Assembly: GCA_963737155.1 (NCBI GenBank)
Contig: CAVTRN010000002.1
Span: 224,001 to 288,000 of the forward strand
Reading direction: 5' to 3'
From: Nitrospirota bacterium
Lineage (GTDB): Bacteria > Nitrospirota > UBA9217
Length of the DNA stretch: 64,000 bases
Position 1 is the stretch's first letter. Each line of letters starts with the position of its first letter. This document shows, one piece after another, positions 6,876-42,826 of this stretch. Below the pieces are notes generated by a model. The model was not told the DNA's origin, did not search any database, and saw only the letters and a program-made list of their open reading frames with translations. A program made the translations under genes and the position numbers.

Positions 6876-7145
6876 GTAAAGTTCTTGGCTATGTTGAGTT
6901 AGATTTGCGTTTGCCAAGCAAATATCTGTTTTCTTGTCCTATTATCCTCCTTTCATTCTGGATTACTTAACATAATAATTTCCAGTTGATCGCATTTAAA
7001 TCACCGGAGGAGAGCTACGTAAGAAAAGTCATCGCCGAATAAAACTGATTCTGTGAAACGTCATGAGGAGCAAGAGAGTTCTGCAATCATTCCCTTCGGG
7101 AATATATTAGAAAAGAGGGATACGCATCTGGTGGAATGGCAGAAA

Positions 7146-7285
7146 ACAGCTATGCATCTGCTTCAATCAGGAGTGGATATTACCGTAATTGGAAGCGTGT
7201 GCTTCAGAAATTGTCTCTTCCGCATACCAATGCAGTCCGTTTTAAAACCGCTGACCCGCTCTTGGAGTTTCTGGAGAGTCTGTGA
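7146..7285 (+). pseudogene. Tyrosine recombinase (RitC-like) C-terminal relic
   Basis: TAMHLLQSGVDITVI then KRVLQKLSLPHTNAVRFKTADPLLEFLESL*; catalytic LGH...Y segment deleted. Confidence 0.75.
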
Positions 7286-8437
7286 TTATATGTAGACTCT
7301 CTCTGAACCGTTCCTAAAAACATAGTATTTTATTTCTCATAACTATGACGGCAGCCGAACAGTGCTGCTGCCGGTTAACGTCAGGGATTCCCGCCCTGAT
7401 TCGCCCAAGTCCCGTTGTTTGCTGATCGGGATTGCTTCTGGCGCCTTTTCAGCAAGACTGCTGCTGGCAGGTGGCCCGGAGAATTGCGCTGTCGACGGGA
7501 TGATGGCTTCTTCTGCAATTCAGCGCAGCCTGGGGAGTCCTGTAAGGACCGTCGTTGGTAGAGACTGTGATGATTTCCACAACCTCCCCGAGTCTTCATC
7601 TTGCTCCAAAACTTCCAGATGTGCTCCTCTCGATTCCTTGCAGGTAGAGGGGAGGCGGTTCTGCTTGGTATGGGAGACTCGGAATATCCTTGAACTCTTC
7701 TCGCGATCGCAAGCGCCGCTGCTTCATGCGGCGAGATGCCATGAAAAGACATATAATTGTTTCTGCCGATAACGGATGTGTAAGCAGGATTCACGGAGAG
7801 CACACCGGCGCCTGCCTTAAATGCTCTGCGGTCAAGCATGTTTAAAAAGGTGGAATAGGCGAACCCGGACAGCATCCGCGCATACGTTACTCCCTGTTCC
7901 TTAAGAGATGCTTTCTTCTTTTCGAAGTCAAGAGTTTCATGAGCGACGGGTTTCCCGGTTTTAATTGACCGGTCGATAATGCCGACGCAGATATCACCGT
8001 AAGTTGCCTCGGTCTGTTCCGTGGTTCTGTCTTTTATACATGCAGCATACGTTGTGTGCCAGACAAGATTGACGAACCGGTCAGTCTCGGAAACAGCAAT
8101 CTCTTTTTCGTTTGCATCTACGCCAATATATCCGATTTCTTGCGGTTTCCCGGTAATTGTTTCTCTTGGGGGGATATCAACCGATGAATACAGATACCAA
8201 CCCTTCTCGCCACGGACAAACCGGTGGGTGATTGCCTGGCTGCGCAGGAGTGCCTGCTCAATATATTCCTGCCCGTAAGGATATGTTACGGTAGGCACCA
8301 TGATGTGTTTACCGTATTTTTTGGCAAGATAGACATAATGGTTGACAGTTGAAAAAGTGACCTGCCCCTTGTCACCGTGGGTTATACTTGGATGCAATGG
8401 GTGTCCAAATACAGAGCCACAAACAAGGAGGCAGGTC

Positions 8438-9550
8438 ATGAAAGATTCTATCACAATCGTAGGACTCGATTCAGCAAAAAACTCCATAGCTGTAGCAACG
8501 GCCGAAATTGGCGGCAGCCAAGAGGTTCGCTACTACGGCAAAATCGGCGGCGACATGGCGTCATTGGACAAAATGGTCAGAAAGCTTGAAAGCAAAGGCT
8601 CAGAACTGCACTTCGTCTATGAAGCCGGGCCGTGTGGTTACGAAATATACCGCCATCTAACCAAGAGAGGTTACAAATGCACGGTTGTGGCACCATCGCT
8701 GATTCCCAAGAAAAGCGGCGATCGCGTCAAGACCGATCGTCGTGACGCGCAAAGTCTAGCCAGGCTGTATCGGGCCGGAGAACTGACTCCTGTTTACGTG
8801 CCCCAAGAGGATGATGAAGCCATGAGAGACCTGACCCGATGCCGCGAAGACGCAGTCAAGGCCCATCGCACTGCCCGGCAGAGGTTAGGCGCGATGCTCC
8901 TGCGGCATGGACACCGTTACTCTGGAGAAACCGCATGGACCCAAGCCCACATGCGCTGGTTGTCTGATATCAAGATGCCACACCCTGCACAGCAGATCAC
9001 GCTGCAAGAGTACATCAACACGGTGAAGGAATGCGCAGAGCGTGTGGCCCGGCTTACGGAGCAGATTCAAACGCTTATGCCCACATGCCGAACGGCCCCT
9101 GTTGCACTCGCAATCCAATCGTTACGCGGCATCGCGGATGTAACTGCCGCGACCACCATGGCCGAGATCGGAGACTTGGGACGTTTTGAAAATCCCAAGC
9201 AGCTCATGGGATACCTTGGATTGGTCCCTTCCGAATACTCCAGCGGCGACAGCACCAGACGGGGTGCTATCACCAAAACCGGAAACACCCACGTCAGGCG
9301 CGCATTGATTGAAGCGGCCCAAGCCTACAGTCTGCCGGCCCGAGTGAGCCGGGTAATCCTCAAGCGGCAGGAGGGGCTGCCGAAAAATATCTGTGATATC
9401 TCCTGGAAAGCCCAGGTGCGTCTCTGCGGACGGTTCCGTAAACTCACGGCCAAAGGGAAGCCCAGGAACAAGGTGGTAACCGCCATTGCCAGGGAACTAT
9501 GCGGCTTCATATGGGCAATTGCCCGGGAAGTGAATCTCCAGAGCGCATAA
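8438..9550 (+). CDS. IS110 DEDD recombinase/transposase, 370 aa
   Basis: VGLD, YEAG, KTDRRDA, SSG motifs; AGGAGG before ATG 8438. Confidence 0.95.
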   Translation: MKDSITIVGLDSAKNSIAVATAEIGGSQEVRYYGKIGGDMASLDKMVRKLESKGSELHFVYEAGPCGYEIYRHLTKRGYKCTVVAPSLIPKKSGDRVKTDRRDAQSLARLYRAGELTPVYVPQEDDEAMRDLTRCREDAVKAHRTARQRLGAMLLRHGHRYSGETAWTQAHMRWLSDIKMPHPAQQITLQEYINTVKECAERVARLTEQIQTLMPTCRTAPVALAIQSLRGIADVTAATTMAEIGDLGRFENPKQLMGYLGLVPSEYSSGDSTRRGAITKTGNTHVRRALIEAAQAYSLPARVSRVILKRQEGLPKNICDISWKAQVRLCGRFRKLTAKGKPRNKVVTAIARELCGFIWAIAREVNLQSA

Positions 9551-9829
9551 GAAGATTAACCCAAGAACAAGGCGTCACACAAAACTTGGGGGGGTATCTT
9601 GGCATGGACTGTCTCTGGAAAATCAATCCTGGGGCATTTATGAAAGAAAAAATCAACCCTCAAAGGTAAAAACCGCTCAAATCGTCAACATAGGCGGGAG
9701 CATCGAGCTTTCCAAAGAACAGGATCAAAAACTTGAAGTCACCCGGTAACAATGGCGACTCAAACGACTGAGGCAAAACAAAGGAGGACGCAAGCAAACA
9801 ATAAACAACCTCCAAGGCATAAGCGGGGA

Positions 9830-9995
9830 CGCGGCCACGTTTACGGAGAATCCTCGTCCAAACTATGGAATAAGGCAATGCCGAACTTCCGTTAATAGAG
9901 CGAGGCAGCTCCGCGGCGAAGAAAGGTCTTGCGGTCAAACCCGCGAATATCAGAGTGATCAAACGTCGCACAAGTCGGCCCCGTCCCTCCTTACG
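9830..9995 (+). ncRNA. Putative bridge RNA/seekRNA (boundaries approximate)
   Basis: Contains CCAAACTAT (target match) and ATATCAGA (donor-junction match) inside stem-flanked segments. Confidence 0.7.
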
Positions 9996-10806
9996 CCTTG
10001 GAACATATTGAAACAATGAACCCTTTGAAAAAAAGGGGCAGGAGACTATTTTCCCTATTGACAACTGTCAACCATATCAGTTTGGGACCCGTATCCTGAG
10101 CGACCCGTCGATGCCAAGCGTGCAGGTCTGGTTGCCGGCCGTTTCATCCTTCGATCCCAGACAAAACGACGAAGAGCTTCGGGCAGCCTTCCAATCAGAC
10201 AGCCAGTTATCATGGGATTTATAGCCATTTTCAGAAAGGTTGAACTGCTTGTCGAAAAGTTTCTTTGTCCCAAAGCAAATCCTGATTCGGCCTTTGTCCA
10301 AATCGTATTTCAGCTTTTCCAGTTTCTGCACCGATGAATGGAGCTTCCGTTTTTTGTTATGGACCGCAAAACGGAGAGACTTCACGCTGGTCGTTTTCTC
10401 ATATTCGGACAATTCCGTGTCTTTGCGTATGTCAATGATACTGTTCTCTCTGGTTTTAATCCATTTTCTCGCAGATTTTATTTTGCGCTCGAGCTTTTCA
10501 ATCCGTAGTTTTAATACCTCAACCGCGGAGCTGATATTGCCGTCAAGATCGTAGCGGATAGCGTTAAACTGCCGGGCGGTGATACCATACCTGACAAGAT
10601 ACTCATTTTTGAATGAAATGGGTTTGTTGCCGGAACGAACGCTGTCTTTAAAGAGAGAGCGTTTGATGTGCCCGTATGAGTCGCCGATATCGTCAAGAAC
10701 ATGATAAAGAGACTTCTTTGTGTCCAGGTAAGACATGTCAACCAGCAAAGTTTGAGCGGTAAAAGAAAGTGCTTCACTTTTGCCGCTCTTGGCCTTGTTA
10801 TCCTTA

Positions 10807-11373
10807 TTACTTGCCATTTTCCATGGCCTCCAGAGCTTTTTTTGCTTTATTGGCCGCTGACCGGCGTCCGTAGAGCCTTGCGCAAAACGATGTCAATACT
10901 TCAATCATGTCCTGCACCAGATCGTCCTTACGTTCGGTCTGGTCTACAATAATAAGTTGACGACCTTGAGCTCGAAGTGCCGATTCTACATACTCAGATC
11001 CAAACCGCATAAGCCGGTCACGATGCAAGGCGACAATAATACTGACGTTGGAGTCGGCAAGCAGCTTCATGAGTTTTGGCCTGTGCCCATTAAGACCAGA
11101 TCCAACCTCAGACACCGCTTTTGAAACTGACAACCCTTTGGAAGCGGCATATACGGAAAGCCGCCCGAGCTGCCCGTCCAGGTCTTTCTTTTGGTCATGA
11201 CTGGATACCCGGGCATAAATAGCAACAGAACCTTGGGCAGTTTTCTGCTCTTTTATAATGATGGTTCCGGTAGGCATCTGCTCAGCCTCAACCGGCAGCT
11301 TGCCAGCCTTCCACCATTTCCATGCCGCTTGATAGGTTATACCTTGTTGCTTTGCCCATACGCTTAGCTTCAT
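10807..11373 (-). CDS. tnpA: IS607 serine recombinase TnpA
   Basis: N-terminal HTH, IYARVSS, EVGSGLN, RDRLMRFG, SFCARLYGRRS. Confidence 0.95.
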   Translation of the reverse strand: MKLSVWAKQQGITYQAAWKWWKAGKLPVEAEQMPTGTIIIKEQKTAQGSVAIYARVSSHDQKKDLDGQLGRLSVYAASKGLSVSKAVSEVGSGLNGHRPKLMKLLADSNVSIIVALHRDRLMRFGSEYVESALRAQGRQLIIVDQTERKDDLVQDMIEVLTSFCARLYGRRSAANKAKKALEAMENGK

Positions 11374-11507
11374 AAATACATTATATCATATAAAATTATA
11401 TTATACAATATAAATATTAACAGTATTCCACCCCGGCAAATACTCATGCTGCCGAGGTTGCTCAACATAATCAAGAACTTTACATAACGCTTTTTATGTT
11501 AAGTTTA

Positions 11508-12622
11508 TTAACCGTCTCATAATAGTATTGACATAATCTTGCATCTGTGGTATAGTATTTCTCATGAAGAAAAAAGCAGATGCGAGAAATCTTGACCATA
11601 AAACTCTGACTGAGCTGAGAAAGCGTGCGGTAAATAGTGTCCAGGAAGGACAAAGCCCCGAACTGGTGGCCAAAGCCCTGGGTATAAATCGCGTCACCAT
11701 CTATGGCTGGTTGGCACGATATCGAAACGGGGGCTGGGGTGCTCTTGATGCCAACAAACGAGGCGGCCGCCCGCCAAAAATGGATGCTAAGGCTATAGAG
11801 TGGGTTTATCGTACCGTGACCACGAAAAATCCGCTTCAGTTGAAGTTTACCTATGCCCTGTGGACAGCGAAGATCATTGGGCAGGTAATATATAAGCGAT
11901 TTGGTATGAGATTGAGCAAGGCATCCGTTTGTCGTTTGCTGGGACAGTTGGGATTGACTCCACAGCGTCCTGTTTGGCGTGCCTATCAGCAAAAGCCGGC
12001 AGCGGTTCAGGAATGGCTGGAGAAGGAGTATCCTCGGATACGAAGCATGGCGCGTCGCATGAAGGCTCAAATCTTCTTCGGAGATGAAGCTGGCGTTCGC
12101 TCTGATCATCATGCGGGCACCACTTGGGCCATGAAGGGTGAGACCCCGATTGTGAGCAGCACAGGAGCGCGCTTCGGATTGAATATGATTTCGGCTGTTA
12201 GTGCACAAGGCGAATTTAGGTTCATGGTAGCCAAAGGTCGCGTAGCGTCGCAGCAATTTATTGAATTCATAAAGCGGCTTATTCAAGGCAGCAAACGGAT
12301 GATATTTCTCATCGTTGATGGTCATCCGTCACACAAGTCTCGCAAGGTTTCTAACTATATTGAAACCATTAAGGAAAAGTTTCGTTTGTTCTTTTTACCG
12401 CCGTATTCTCCAGAGCTGAATCCCGATGAGAGAGTCTGGAATGACCTGAAGAACAATGCAGTTGGTCGTCAGGCAATTAGTTCACCGGAACAATTACATG
12501 GTGCAGTAGTCAGTCATTTGAGGTTTATCCAAAAGTCTCCTGATCGTGTGCGTGCTTACTTTAATAACGAGACAACAAAGTATGCGGCATAATTAATGTT
12601 AATACTATTATGAGACGATTAA
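11508..12622 (+). mobile_element. IS630-family insertion sequence
   Basis: 27-bp terminal IR (25/27 match); TA duplication at 11506-11507 and 12623-12624. Confidence 0.9.
11564..12592 (+). CDS. IS630 transposase
   Basis: HTH, FGDEAG, IVDG, LPPYSPELNPDE. Confidence 0.95.
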   Translation: MKKKADARNLDHKTLTELRKRAVNSVQEGQSPELVAKALGINRVTIYGWLARYRNGGWGALDANKRGGRPPKMDAKAIEWVYRTVTTKNPLQLKFTYALWTAKIIGQVIYKRFGMRLSKASVCRLLGQLGLTPQRPVWRAYQQKPAAVQEWLEKEYPRIRSMARRMKAQIFFGDEAGVRSDHHAGTTWAMKGETPIVSSTGARFGLNMISAVSAQGEFRFMVAKGRVASQQFIEFIKRLIQGSKRMIFLIVDGHPSHKSRKVSNYIETIKEKFRLFFLPPYSPELNPDERVWNDLKNNAVGRQAISSPEQLHGAVVSHLRFIQKSPDRVRAYFNNETTKYAA

Positions 12623-42429: not shown

Positions 42430-42564
42430 ATCATAGGTGTCGACAAAGCGGCTTTTCTCATGTTAAGAGCAATCGAAGACAATCTTAGAGACTTTCTTGT
42501 CGGAGGAATGGTAGTAACAAAATATGGCAATCCTGTGCGGGGAACCGAAATAGAAAATCTGTGA
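42430..42564 (+). pseudogene. Glycerate 2-kinase-like fragment
   Basis: IIGVDKAAFLMLRAIEDNL...GMVVTKYG resembles GxGKA..MA.A.E..L....G.VVTKYGH. Confidence 0.5.
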
Positions 42565-42826
42565 TACTGCTCCACGCCGAAGAAAGGTCTTGCGTCCAAA
42601 TCTGCGAATACCAGAATGCACAAACGTCGCAATAGCCGGACCCGTTCCTTCTTATGCCCCGGAGCAAGTTTACCATTGCACCCTTAATACAAAAAGGGGC
42701 GAAGACTGTTTTTTCTCTGCTGTTAAACTGCAGTAAAAGCTGATCAACAGGGCTTTAAAGCTTTGGGAGATCTGGAAATAGCCTGCTATTTTCTACGTGT
42801 ACTGGCACTTGCAAAGAGGGGGACTC

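What the first reader, a model, noticed from the sequence alone, without database searches (positions are those of the whole stretch)
9830..9995. IS110 bridge RNA whose guides match its own target and donor
Seen: the empty target reads GTCCCAAACTATCTTG (minus strand) and the 3' non-coding region contains CCAAACTAT (9858-9866) plus the opposite-strand ATAG (9895-9898). The circle junction reads CCATATCAGACAT and the region contains ATATCAGA (9947-9954) plus the opposite-strand GTCT (9926-9929). All four overlap the AG/CT core. Known: IS110/IS1111 recombinases use a bispecific RNA with target and donor loops. The class is described, but this is a complete natural programmable set that has disrupted another RNA-guided enzyme. 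The 4-nt matches alone are weak.
Basis: partly seen in the sequence, partly recalled or inferred. Interest (0 to 1): 0.7.

Follow-up and report, generated by a model that had tools for sequence, protein, structure and literature searches.

The report
IS1111-type insertion sequence with bridge RNA
This stretch encodes the guide RNA of a jumping gene whose two small loops spell out where the element inserts and what its own ends look like; it is a well-documented example of a mechanism first described in 2024.

Summary
Window 8333-10080 (+) is a 1748-bp IS110-family element of IS1111-like layout: 14-bp subterminal inverted repeats, a DEDD/Ser recombinase gene (8438-9550) and a long 3' non-coding region. 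Positions 9811-10002 fold into a long basal stem carrying two stem-loops, each with an internal loop.

Six near-identical copies in this genome share only ATAG|TTT at their insertion sites. Across 30 guide lineages from other genomes, the 5' strand of loop 1 is complementary to the core plus five bases to its right (23-30 of 30 per position). The 3' strand matches the core plus three bases to its left. The scaffold stays conserved, with 16 compensatory base pairs.

The donor loop string ATATCAG is invariant, as are the element's ends. In two distant lineages both changed together. GTCT is only partly supported.

The disrupted gene is a divergent TnpB-related gene of an IS607-type element. Its RNA guidance is not shown.

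No RNA data exist for this organism. Verdict: a genuine bridge RNA (seekRNA), a new member of a known kind.

The parts
8333..10080 (+). Insertion sequence, 1748 bp, IS110 family with IS1111-like layout. AG flanks it on the left (8331-8332) and forms its last two bases (10079-10080).
   Evidence: Six copies at 99.7-100% identity with different flanks. Unoccupied sites carry a single AG.
8338..8351 (.). Left subterminal inverted repeat ATGGTTGACAGTTG, 5 nt inside the left end. Its partner is 10062-10075.
   Evidence: the repeat finder pair I5: 14 nt, 100% complementary.
10062..10075 (.). Right subterminal inverted repeat CAACTGTCAACCAT, 5 nt inside the right end.
8438..9550 (+). Recombinase (transposase) gene, 370 aa. 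D11, E62, D100, D103 and S269-G270 align with the corresponding residues of ISCro4.
   Evidence: Pfam PF01548 (61.6 bits) and PF02371 (83.8 bits). NCBIfam NF033542 'IS110 family RNA-guided transposase', 273.9 bits against a cut-off of 140. PDB ISCro4 9t56 E 2e-11 and IS621 8wt6 E 1.4e-10.
9551..9810 (+). Spacer between the stop codon and the RNA. It is about 200 nt longer than in the 1.54-kb relatives. Three of the seven sites that differ among the six copies lie here.
9811..10002 (+). Bridge RNA (seekRNA) structure: basal stem 9811-9836 / 9977-10002 enclosing two stem-loops. The real 5' and 3' ends of the RNA are unknown.
   Evidence: MFE -83.8 kcal/mol, z -6.39, 0 of 200 shuffles as stable. 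Consensus of 20 relatives: 48 pairs, 96.1% of cells paired, 16 pairs with changes on both sides (0 of 500 shuffles), and 34-45% paired when partners are slid. No difference among the six copies in this range.
9845..9912 (+). Target-binding arm: stems 9845-9848/9909-9912 and 9852-9855/9902-9905, internal loop 9856-9866 and 9890-9901, hairpin 9867-9889.
9858..9865 (+). Guide 1 (5' strand of the target loop), CCAAACUA. It is complementary to the + strand of the target: one base left of the core, the core AG, and five bases to the right.
   Evidence: Per-position complementarity in 30 lineages: 28, 27, 30, 28, 28, 30, 26 and 23 of 30. The five right-flank positions have 7.8-13.3 expected and 0 of 2000 shuffles each.
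9894..9898 (+). Guide 2 (3' strand of the target loop), AAUAG. It is identical to the + strand, so it would pair with the - strand: three bases left of the core plus the core.
   Evidence: Identity in 30 lineages: 17, 26, 29, 29 and 29 of 30. The two variable positions have 8.3 and 7.7 expected and 0 of 2000 shuffles. AATAG precedes 4 of the 6 copies in this genome.
9913..9969 (+). Donor-binding arm: stem 9913-9918/9964-9969, internal loop 9919-9930 and 9945-9963, hairpin 9931-9944.
9947..9954 (+). Donor guide on the 3' strand of the loop, AUAUCAGA. It is identical to the right end, the core and the first base of the left end in the end-to-end junction.
   Evidence: ATATCAG is invariant in the 20 aligned relatives, as is the right end. 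Both changed together in L090 (ATAACAG) and in L097-L100 (ATAGCA).
9926..9929 (+). Possible short donor guide on the 5' strand of the loop, GUCU. It is complementary to the core AG plus AC of the left end.
   Evidence: GTC is invariant in 20 relatives. The fourth base is T or A in relatives with the same ends, and GTC becomes TTC or ATC in some lineages. Weak.
10058..10063 (+). TTGACA. In a circular form it would stand 18 nt upstream of CATAAT (8334-8339), giving a promoter-like site that reads into the recombinase gene.
   Evidence: String check on the joined ends in a script. Inferred, not shown. No promoter-like site was found on the + strand between 9551 and 9810.
7307..8332 (-). 3' part of the host element, an IS607-type element: C-terminal part of a 562-aa TnpB-related gene cut by the insertion.
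   Evidence: About 11 copies at 95-99% identity. Intact copy in L101. NCBIfam guided_TnpB 42.2 bits, below the cut-off of 100. Homologs are named 'TnpB-related' by their sources.
10081..11433 (-). 5' part of the host element: N-terminal part of the TnpB-related gene and the IS607-family serine recombinase gene (10807-11373).
   Evidence: NF033518 IS607 family transposase, 190.8 bits against a cut-off of 110, on the intact copy. Pfam Resolvase on the window ORF.

Best explanation
Window 8333-10080 is a recently active IS110-family element with the IS1111-type layout. Its 3' non-coding region encodes a bispecific guide RNA (bridge RNA or seekRNA, about 9811-10002) on the same strand as the recombinase gene.

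The RNA has a long closing stem and two arms, each with an internal loop.

In the first loop, the 5' strand (CCAAACUA, 9858-9865) pairs with the + strand of the target: one base left of the core, the core AG, and five bases to the right. The 3' strand (AAUAG, 9894-9898) pairs with the - strand over three bases left of the core plus the core. Together they specify about 10 bp, AATAG|TTTGG.

In the second loop, the 3' strand (AUAUCAGA, 9947-9954) matches the element's right end, the core and the first base of the left end, as joined in the circular form. The 5' strand may add a short contact (GUCU, 9926-9929).

The DEDD/Ser recombinase would use the RNA to bring the circle junction and the target together and exchange strands at the AG (CT) core.

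Shown here: the anatomy, the conserved structure, the covariation of the target-loop guides with insertion sites, and two co-changes of donor loop and right end.

Inferred from published work on IS621, ISEc11 and relatives: that the RNA is made, binds the recombinase and directs the chemistry.
For: (1) Recombinase family. Pfam PF01548 and PF02371 match. NCBIfam 'IS110 family RNA-guided transposase' scores 273.9 bits against a cut-off of 140. There is homology to the solved ISCro4 and IS621 recombinases.

(2) Six copies at 99.7-100% identity lie at six different places. Their flanks share only (A/G/T)ATAG on the left and TTT on the right.

(3) Fold. MFE z is -6.39. In 20 relatives, 48 pairs are 96.1% paired, against 34-45% when partners are slid. 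Sixteen pairs carry compensatory changes, 0 of 500 shuffles reaching that. All four strings fall in the two internal loops.

(4) The alignment of 20 relatives shows a constant scaffold and two hypervariable segments at exactly the two target-loop strands.

(5) Covariation with flanks. In 36 lineages, the longest match of the reverse complement of guide 1 to its own right flank (core excluded) averages 4.72 nt, against 2.65 to other lineages' flanks; 0 of 20000 permutations reach this. On the left side (25 lineages) the figures are 2.96 against 2.26, with 1 of 20000. The per-position map from 30 lineages is given under 'parts'.

(6) A second lineage in the same genome, at C1:1719228-1720770, has guide 1 ACCTACTA and the right flank TAGGT in place of TTTGG.

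(7) Lineages not used for the map agree. Of 5 right-flank bases: L090 5; L077, L078 and L079 4 each; L086 4; L098 5.

(8) The order of guides is the one reported for IS1111-family seekRNAs: the segment complementary to the top strand lies 5' of the one complementary to the bottom strand (PMC11187229, section 9).

(9) Weak hint. Short contigs from metatranscriptome libraries of at least three studies cover 9775-9993 of relatives and differ from the window at guide positions 9857-9862 and 9892-9895.
Against: No RNA data exist for this organism. The RNA's ends and promoter are unknown, and the scan found no promoter-like site on the + strand upstream of the RNA. The metatranscriptome contigs come from relatives and could contain DNA.

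None of the six insertion sites matches all 10 predicted positions; each misses 1-2 distal positions. Eight perfect AATAGTTTGG sites and 41 ATAGTTTGG sites are present in the genome and so are unoccupied. The distal positions are therefore tolerant, or transposition is rare.

The 5' donor strand offers only 4 nt. Its T is A in relatives with identical ends, and in some lineages GTC becomes TTC, which does not fit their left end.

Some lineages fit poorly on the right side: own match of 3 nt or less in L025, L056, L070 and L089. The second lineage in this genome mismatches both guides two bases left of the core.

A covariance model of this RNA does not detect the non-coding regions of ISEc11 or IS5075 at E up to 1. 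The recombinase is only about 24% identical to theirs. Rfam 15 has no match.
Confidence: 0.9

Rival explanations
1. The matches are DNA sites, not RNA guides. The 3' region would carry internal copies of the end and of a preferred target that the recombinase binds as DNA, for example pseudo-ends or regulatory binding sites, and the protein alone would choose the target.
For: The ATATCAG string equals the right end and is invariant in the 20 aligned relatives, so most of its conservation cannot tell DNA from RNA. No RNA from this organism was seen.
Against: The strings sit in internal loops of a structure kept by compensatory base changes: 16 pairs, 0 of 500 shuffles. This points to selection on an RNA. 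One loop strand is complementary and the other identical to the same target strand, which fits pairing with both DNA strands. Recombinases at 45-91% identity have very different targets, and the targets track the loop bases.
Confidence: 0.04
2. Cause and effect are reversed. The loop segments would be copied from the flanking DNA at or after insertion, for example by gene conversion or target-primed synthesis, and would not choose the site.
For: Comparative data alone give correlation, not direction.
Against: One and the same guide pair is found at several unrelated places that share only the motif: six sites here, four in L026-L029 and three in L077-L079. The guide therefore came before the insertions. 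In the L035-L040 clade, unoccupied copies of the repeated target motif are abundant in the same genomes: 21 of 25 distinct unoccupied sites read GG+ATTCC, as guide 1 predicts.
Confidence: 0.02
3. The structure is an ordinary 3' UTR element, such as a terminator, stabiliser or antisense regulator of the recombinase gene. The matches to target and ends would then be chance.
For: Within the window alone the 9-mer and the 8-mer are not rare: 98 and 323 of 2000 shuffles. A further conserved hairpin follows at 10021-10037.
Against: Covariation with both flanks: 0 and 1 of 20000 permutations. Per-position complementarity of 77-100% over five variable positions.
Confidence: 0.02

Closest known systems
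seekRNAs of IS1111-family elements ISEc11, ISPa11, ISKpn4 and ISPst6 (Siddiquee et al. 2024, PMC11187229; abstract and sections 6, 9 and 13 read)
   Same: The RNA is encoded downstream of the recombinase gene. The element has subterminal inverted repeats. Two short segments match the two strands of the target and overlap at the insertion point, and the segment complementary to the top strand lies 5' of the other. The recombinase carries the GL-P----SG motif (GLVPSEYSSG here).
   Different: The recombinase is only about 24% identical to ISEc11 and IS5075 and is 370 aa, against the 330-350 aa given for the family. A covariance model of this RNA does not hit their non-coding regions. The structure here holds both a target loop and a donor loop within about 190 nt, whereas the paper stresses short RNAs of 82-96 nt with target matches. 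Nothing here has been tested at the bench.
IS621 bridge RNA (Durrant et al. 2024, PMC11208160, passages read; Hiraizumi et al. 2024, PMC11208158, passages read)
   Same: A DEDD/Ser recombinase. An RNA with a target-binding and a donor-binding internal loop, each reading both DNA strands around a 2-nt core. Read on the strand opposite to the gene, the core here is CT as in IS621. The long 5' guide then pairs with the bottom strand of the left target (like the LTG) and the short 3' guide with the top strand at the core (like the RTG).
   Different: The RNA lies in the right end rather than the left end. Relative to the gene, the order of strand matches is reversed. In the donor loop the long guide is on the 3' strand (8 nt) and the 5' strand offers 4 nt at most. 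A basal stem of about 24 pairs encloses both arms. Sequence similarity of the recombinase to IS621 is confined to residues 223-297.
ISPpu9 of Pseudomonas putida with its Ssr9 small RNA (PMC12288879; only the search listing and the start of the abstract were seen)
   Same: An IS110-family element with a small RNA gene downstream of the recombinase gene. It has several copies per genome and extra RNA copies outside full elements.
   Different: That element inserts into REP sequences. Here the six sites share only a short motif, and the extra RNA-like pieces in this genome are truncated remnants.

Membership tests
IS110 family (DEDD/Ser recombinase elements) | Recombinase with an N-terminal DEDD (RuvC-like) domain and the C-terminal IS110-type domain bearing the conserved Ser-Gly | tested here: met
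   PF01548 61.6 bits (cut-off 29) and PF02371 83.8 bits (cut-off 21.3). NF033542 273.9 bits (cut-off 140). D11, E62, D100, D103 and S269-G270 align with ISCro4.
IS110 family | Site-specific insertion without long target duplications; a 2-nt core shared by target and ends | tested here: met
   Six copies are flanked by AG on the left and end in AG. Empty sites carry a single AG.
IS1111 group | Subterminal inverted repeats of 7-17 bp (as given in the PMC11208160 passage) | tested here: met
   A 14-nt perfect inverted repeat lies 5 nt inside each end: 8338-8351 and 10062-10075.
IS1111 group | The longer non-coding region lies downstream of the recombinase gene | tested here: met
   105 nt upstream (8333-8437) against 530 nt downstream (9551-10080).
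IS1111 group | GL-P----S(t)G motif in the C-terminal domain (PMC11187229, section 6) | tested here: met
   GLVPSEYSSG, residues 261-270.
IS1111 group | Recombinase of 330-350 aa, related over its full length to that of IS1111 | tested here: inconclusive
   370 aa. About 24% identity over residues 3-361 to elements annotated IS5075 and ISEc11. No tree with reference sequences was built.
Bridge RNA / seekRNA | A structured non-coding RNA with internal loops whose two strands match opposite strands of the target around the core | tested here: met
Bridge RNA / seekRNA | Loop bases covary with insertion sites across relatives | tested here: met
   0 of 20000 (right side, 36 lineages) and 1 of 20000 (left side, 25 lineages) permutations. 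Per-position map from 30 lineages.
Bridge RNA / seekRNA | A second loop matches the element's joined ends and covaries with them | tested here: inconclusive
   The 8-nt match sits in the second internal loop. The ends and the loop are both invariant in most relatives. Two lineages show a joint change (L090; L097-L100). The 5' strand match is 4 nt and not consistently kept.
Bridge RNA / seekRNA | The RNA is expressed, binds the recombinase and is needed for, and can reprogram, insertion | not testable with these tools
   The only hint is short contigs of relatives in metatranscriptome libraries.
Bridge RNA / seekRNA | Match to a curated RNA family model | tested here: not met
   No Rfam 15 match in 7000-11500 at E up to 1 apart from two chance-level hits elsewhere. 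I did not check whether Rfam holds a bridge RNA family.
TnpB (for the disrupted host gene) | Match to TnpB / OrfB models above threshold, with RuvC motifs and a zinc ribbon | tested here: not met
   On the intact copy: guided_TnpB 42.2 bits (cut-off 100), covering residues 367-454 only; TIGR01766 26.1 bits (cut-off 32); Pfam Cas12f1-like_TNB E 0.016. No PDB sequence match. By eye there is no CxxC pair after the PAYTS motif. Context and the names of homologs ('TnpB-related', 'IS605 OrfB') speak for a relationship.

The most novel reading that the evidence does not exclude
This subfamily may offer a natural record of where the strands cross over.

In sister lineages whose target core differs from the donor core, the left junction always carries the donor core AG and the right junction the target core. 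The target core is GG in L031-L040 and L053. Guide 1 there reads AA in L097-L100; no empty sites were examined for that clade.

Guide 1 matches the target core. Guide 2 matches the post-exchange left junction (left flank + AG + A) better than it matches the intact target.

If this holds, elements of this type recombine non-identical cores. Both strands would cross over on the same side of the core, and the 3' target guide would act as a product-stabilising 'handshake' guide. The window's own element would work in the same way, although its cores are both AG.
Probability: 0.45. Interest if true: 0.45.

Novelty: new member of a known kind. Interest (0 to 1): 0.3.

Why it matters
The class was described in 2024, so the finding does not change what is known.

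Its value is as a fully documented natural case. One genome holds an intact recombinase, its guide RNA, six recent insertions, many unoccupied sites, and a second lineage with different guides. A family of at least 30 guide variants from other genomes gives a position-by-position target code of about 10 bp.

This makes the element a ready candidate for bench tests of a compact IS1111-type programmable recombinase from anaerobic environmental bacteria. It also supplies natural data on mismatch tolerance and on how the core is handled.

Tried and rejected
Rfam scan of 7000-11500 at E up to 1. It gave only two chance-level hits (Twister-sister and c4-a1b1, both far below their gathering scores) and none in 9811-10002.

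Promoter scan. No promoter-like site was found on the + strand between the stop codon and the RNA. How the RNA is transcribed stays open. Co-transcription with the gene followed by processing is my inference.

RNA evidence. The five RNA runs listed held small shares of the query words. The four that were laid gave short contigs of relatives over 9775-9993 only. The lack of cover over the recombinase gene means nothing, because these are contigs, the likeness threshold was 88%, and the runs were found with 9400-10080. No run of the organism's own RNA was found.

Link to validated seekRNAs. The model R1 did not hit the ISEc11 (L103) or IS5075 (L104) loci at E up to 1. A Klebsiella plasmid relative (L102, 44% aa) looks degenerate, with stops in the frame by eye, but has a weak R1 match of 44.8 bits.

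Host gene. Pfam on the two fragments found nothing, and a PDB sequence search found nothing significant. I did not fold the protein.

The automatic end-finder (last occurrence of a 5-mer taken from the donor loop) misplaced the right end in several loci: L054, L075, L079, L082, L087, L097 and L099. It found no end or too short a flank in 13 others. I used only rows with a canonical end, or ends that I read.

Rows dropped. The scaffold pattern matched 61 of the 87 loci examined; the other 26 are more distant or truncated. Of the 61, 57 had a recognisable right end and 51 a left end. Copies with the same guide were reduced to one per lineage before the permutations. One search used the 49 loci with both ends, which give 46 distinct sites and 30 guide pairs.

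The idea that the element aims specifically at the TnpB-related gene was rejected. Only 1 of 6 copies lies in it, about 10 copies of it are unoccupied, and the other five insertions cross no long open frame. One further copy lies 91 bp outside another copy of that element, which may be chance.

The search of earlier findings and the protein Atlas were closed. Supplementary files of the papers were not opened. Supplementary Table 5 of PMC11208160 and the supplementary figures of PMC11187229 may already list related elements or structures.

Full report
**What is there**

Reading 8000-10600 confirms the four strings at the stated coordinates.

A search of the window's own genome with 8300-10110 and a BLAST of the element found six full copies at 99.7-100% identity. 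These fix the ends at 8333 and 10080. The same searches found about ten places where the two flanks of the window's copy are contiguous and overlap by two bases. Those are unoccupied sites.

One unoccupied site reads ...GGCAAGATAGTTTGGGAC.... AG stands on both sides of the inserted element.

**The element**

- The ORF 8438-9550 encodes a 370-aa protein. It has the two Pfam domains of IS110-family recombinases and matches the NCBIfam model 'IS110 family RNA-guided transposase' above its cut-off.
- It aligns with the solved ISCro4 and IS621 recombinases, with the DEDD residues and the Ser-Gly in place.
- A perfect 14-nt inverted repeat lies 5 nt inside each end.
- The non-coding region is 105 nt upstream and 530 nt downstream of the gene.
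- The motif GLVPSEYSSG is present.

These are the features that Siddiquee et al. (PMC11187229, section 6) and Durrant et al. (PMC11208160, passage on IS1111) give for the IS1111 group. In that group the guide RNA lies in the right end.

The protein is longer than the 330-350 aa quoted for that group. It is only about 24% identical to elements annotated ISEc11 and IS5075. I therefore call the layout IS1111-like and leave the subgroup open.

**The RNA**

- On its own, 9800-10010 folds to -83.8 kcal/mol with z -6.39.
- I took twenty relatives of the 80 loci found with the recombinase: those whose BLAST match to the window's 3' region covered it nearly end to end, one per near-identical group, plus the window's own RNA and the second lineage of this genome. 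They align with a constant scaffold.
- The consensus structure has 48 pairs, with 96.1% of cells paired. Sliding the partners gives 34-45%.
- Sixteen pairs have changes on both sides, and 0 of 500 column shuffles reach that number.

In window coordinates:

| Part | Coordinates |
|---|---|
| Basal stem | 9811-9836 / 9977-10002 |
| First arm | 9845-9912 |
| First arm, internal loop | 9856-9866 and 9890-9901 |
| Second arm | 9913-9969 |
| Second arm, internal loop | 9919-9930 and 9945-9963 |

In the alignment the two strands of the first loop are hypervariable. The second loop is nearly constant.

**Guides and targets in this genome**

The six copies lie behind GATAG, AATAG (four times) and TATAG. 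They lie in front of TTTGG, TTTAC, TTTTA, TTTAG, TTTTA and TTTGT. What they share, ATAG|TTT, is what the two loop strands share with the window's site.

A second, single-copy lineage in the same genome has a recombinase 72% identical to the window's. Its first guide is ACCTACTA, and it sits in front of TAGGT. That is three compensating changes. Its left flank mismatches both guides at one position.

**Guides and targets in relatives**

A pattern for the scaffold found the first arm in 61 of 87 loci. Ends were placed by alignment to the window's ends.

With one site per guide lineage and the core left out:

| Side | Lineages | Match to own flank | Match to others' flanks | Permutations reaching it |
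|---|---|---|---|---|
| Right (reverse complement of guide 1) | 36 | 4.72 nt | 2.65 nt | 0 of 20000 |
| Left (guide 2) | 25 | 2.96 nt | 2.26 nt | 1 of 20000 |

Poor fits on the right side are L025, L056 and L070 (3 nt each) and L089 (2 nt).

Per-position map from the 30 lineages with both ends:

- The bases aligned with 9862, 9861, 9860, 9859 and 9858 are complementary to the first to fifth base right of the core in 28, 28, 30, 26 and 23 of 30 lineages. Expected values are 7.8-13.3, and 0 of 2000 shuffles reach each figure.
- The next base out shows nothing (8 of 30).
- The base aligned with 9865 pairs with the base left of the core in 28 of 30.
- The base aligned with 9866 does not covary (4 of 30).
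- On the other strand, the bases aligned with 9894, 9895 and 9896 equal the third, second and first base left of the core in 17, 26 and 29 of 30.

The code is therefore about 10 bp, AATAG|TTTGG for this element.

A covariance model built from the 20 sequences found the RNA in 75 of 82 loci. Lineages not used for the map fit as well. L090, L077-L079, L086 and L098 match 4 or 5 of 5 right-flank bases. L085, L062 and L063 match 3 of 5. L097 matches 2 of 5. L100 matches only if shifted by one base.

**The donor loop**

AUAUCAGA (9947-9954) equals the right end, the core and the first base of the left end. ATATCAG is invariant in the 20 aligned relatives, and so is the right end. Most of the family therefore cannot test the pairing.

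Two distant lineages can. In L090 both read ATAACAG. In L097-L100 the loop reads ATAGCAG and the end CATAGCA.

The other strand is weaker. GTC is constant and complementary to the last core base plus AC. The T of GTCT is A in relatives with the same ends. Some lineages have TTC or ATC, which I cannot reconcile simply with their left ends. I count this strand as unproven.

**Comparison with the known systems**

In IS621 the 5' guide of the target loop pairs with the bottom strand of the left target, and the short 3' guide with the top strand at the core. The core is CT (PMC11208158, passages).

Read on the strand opposite to the gene, the present target is CCAAA-CT-ATT, and the same description applies. 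Read along the gene, the guide complementary to the top strand comes first. Siddiquee et al. report this order for IS1111-family seekRNAs and call it the reverse of the IS110 type (PMC11187229, abstract and section 9).

The mechanism is thus the published one. The differences are listed under Closest known systems.

**Limits**

- Within the window alone, the 9-mer and the 8-mer arise together in 17 of 2000 shuffles.
- No site among the six is a perfect 10-bp match, while eight perfect sites are present in the genome.
- No RNA of this organism was available. Four metatranscriptome runs gave short contigs of relatives covering 9775-9993, with differences at the guide positions. That is a weak hint of expression in the family, no more.
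- The joined ends would form TTGACA-18 nt-CATAAT reading into the gene. Such junction promoters are described for IS621 (PMC11208158, passage). Here the promoter is an inference.

**The disrupted gene**

The insertion lies in a 2.38-kb element (window 7307-8332 and 10081-11433, - strand) present in about 11 copies.

An intact copy encodes an IS607-family serine recombinase, which scores above its cut-off. It also encodes a 562-aa protein whose only family matches are sub-threshold hits to TnpB models over residues 367-454. Homologs number more than 2400, carry no Pfam domain on record, and are named 'TnpB-related' or 'IS605 OrfB' by their sources.

'Another RNA-guided enzyme' is therefore plausible but not shown. 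The gene is one target among many, not a dedicated one.

**A side observation**

In the clade L031-L040 and L053, the left junction reads AG and the right junction GG in 8 of 8 loci. In their genomes the target is a repeated palindromic motif: 21 of 25 distinct unoccupied copies read GG+ATTCC.

The target core there is therefore GG and the donor core AG. Each junction keeps one of them. Guide 1 carries the complement of GG. Guide 2 reads left flank + AG + A, which is the left junction after exchange.

L097-L100 show a similar pattern, with AA at the right junction and the matching bases in guide 1; the intact target was not examined there.

This fits cleavage of both strands on one side of the core and the 'handshake' pairing proposed for IS621 (PMC11208158, passages). 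I did not follow it further.

**Verdict**

The finding is real and correctly read. It is a new, well-supported member of a known kind.

Noticed in passing
window 7307-8332 and 10081-11433 (- strand); intact copy L101:146-2390: An IS607-type element in about 11 copies at 95-99% identity. Its second gene encodes a 562-aa TnpB-related protein with no Pfam match above threshold. By eye it has no CxxC pairs after the PAYTS motif. It belongs to a family of more than 2400 proteins with no Pfam domain on record.
   Followed up: partly
window 42493-42712 (+): A remnant of a related element: donor arm and part of the right end. BLAST gives 77% over 146 nt, and the covariance model scores 36.7 bits. There is no recombinase gene. 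A similar remnant lies at G000:C1:252785-253039, and a degenerate element at C1:1293454-1294240.
   Followed up: partly
G000:C1:1719228-1720770 (L007:1504-3046): A second lineage of the same family in this genome: 1543 bp, intact 369-aa gene, single copy, different target guides. Its site mismatches both guides two bases left of the core.
   Followed up: yes
L031, L032, L035, L036, L038, L039, L040, L053; empty sites in L105-L134: A sister clade inserts into a repeated palindromic motif (CTGG+ATTCCGGCTTTCGCCGGAAT; 118 matches with up to one mismatch to a 14-nt part of it in one genome). The left junction carries AG and the right junction GG in 8 of 8 loci. The unoccupied target reads GG in 21 of 25 distinct sites. 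Donor and target cores therefore differ, and each junction keeps one of them.
   Followed up: partly
G000:C2:2320480-2322227: One of the other five copies of the element lies 91 bp outside another copy of the IS607-type element. Two of six copies are thus in or next to that element.
   Followed up: no
window 11505-11900: A repeat of about 395 bp next to the IS607-type element, with six more copies at 98-99% identity in the genome.
   Followed up: no
window 9551-9810: The spacer between the gene and the RNA is about 200 nt longer than in the 1.54-kb relatives. It holds three of the seven sites that differ among the six copies. Its content is unexplained.
   Followed up: no
L102:1174-2492 (Klebsiella pneumoniae plasmid NZ_CP073792.1): A relative of the recombinase gene at 44% aa identity with stops in the frame by eye. 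It is followed by a weak match to the RNA model (44.8 bits) and is not annotated in the plasmid table.
   Followed up: no
window 10021-10037 (+): A conserved hairpin (CCCTTT-GAAAA-AAAGGG) between the RNA and the right inverted repeat, also present in relatives. A second, imperfect inverted repeat pairs 8352-8370 with 10033-10051.
   Followed up: no
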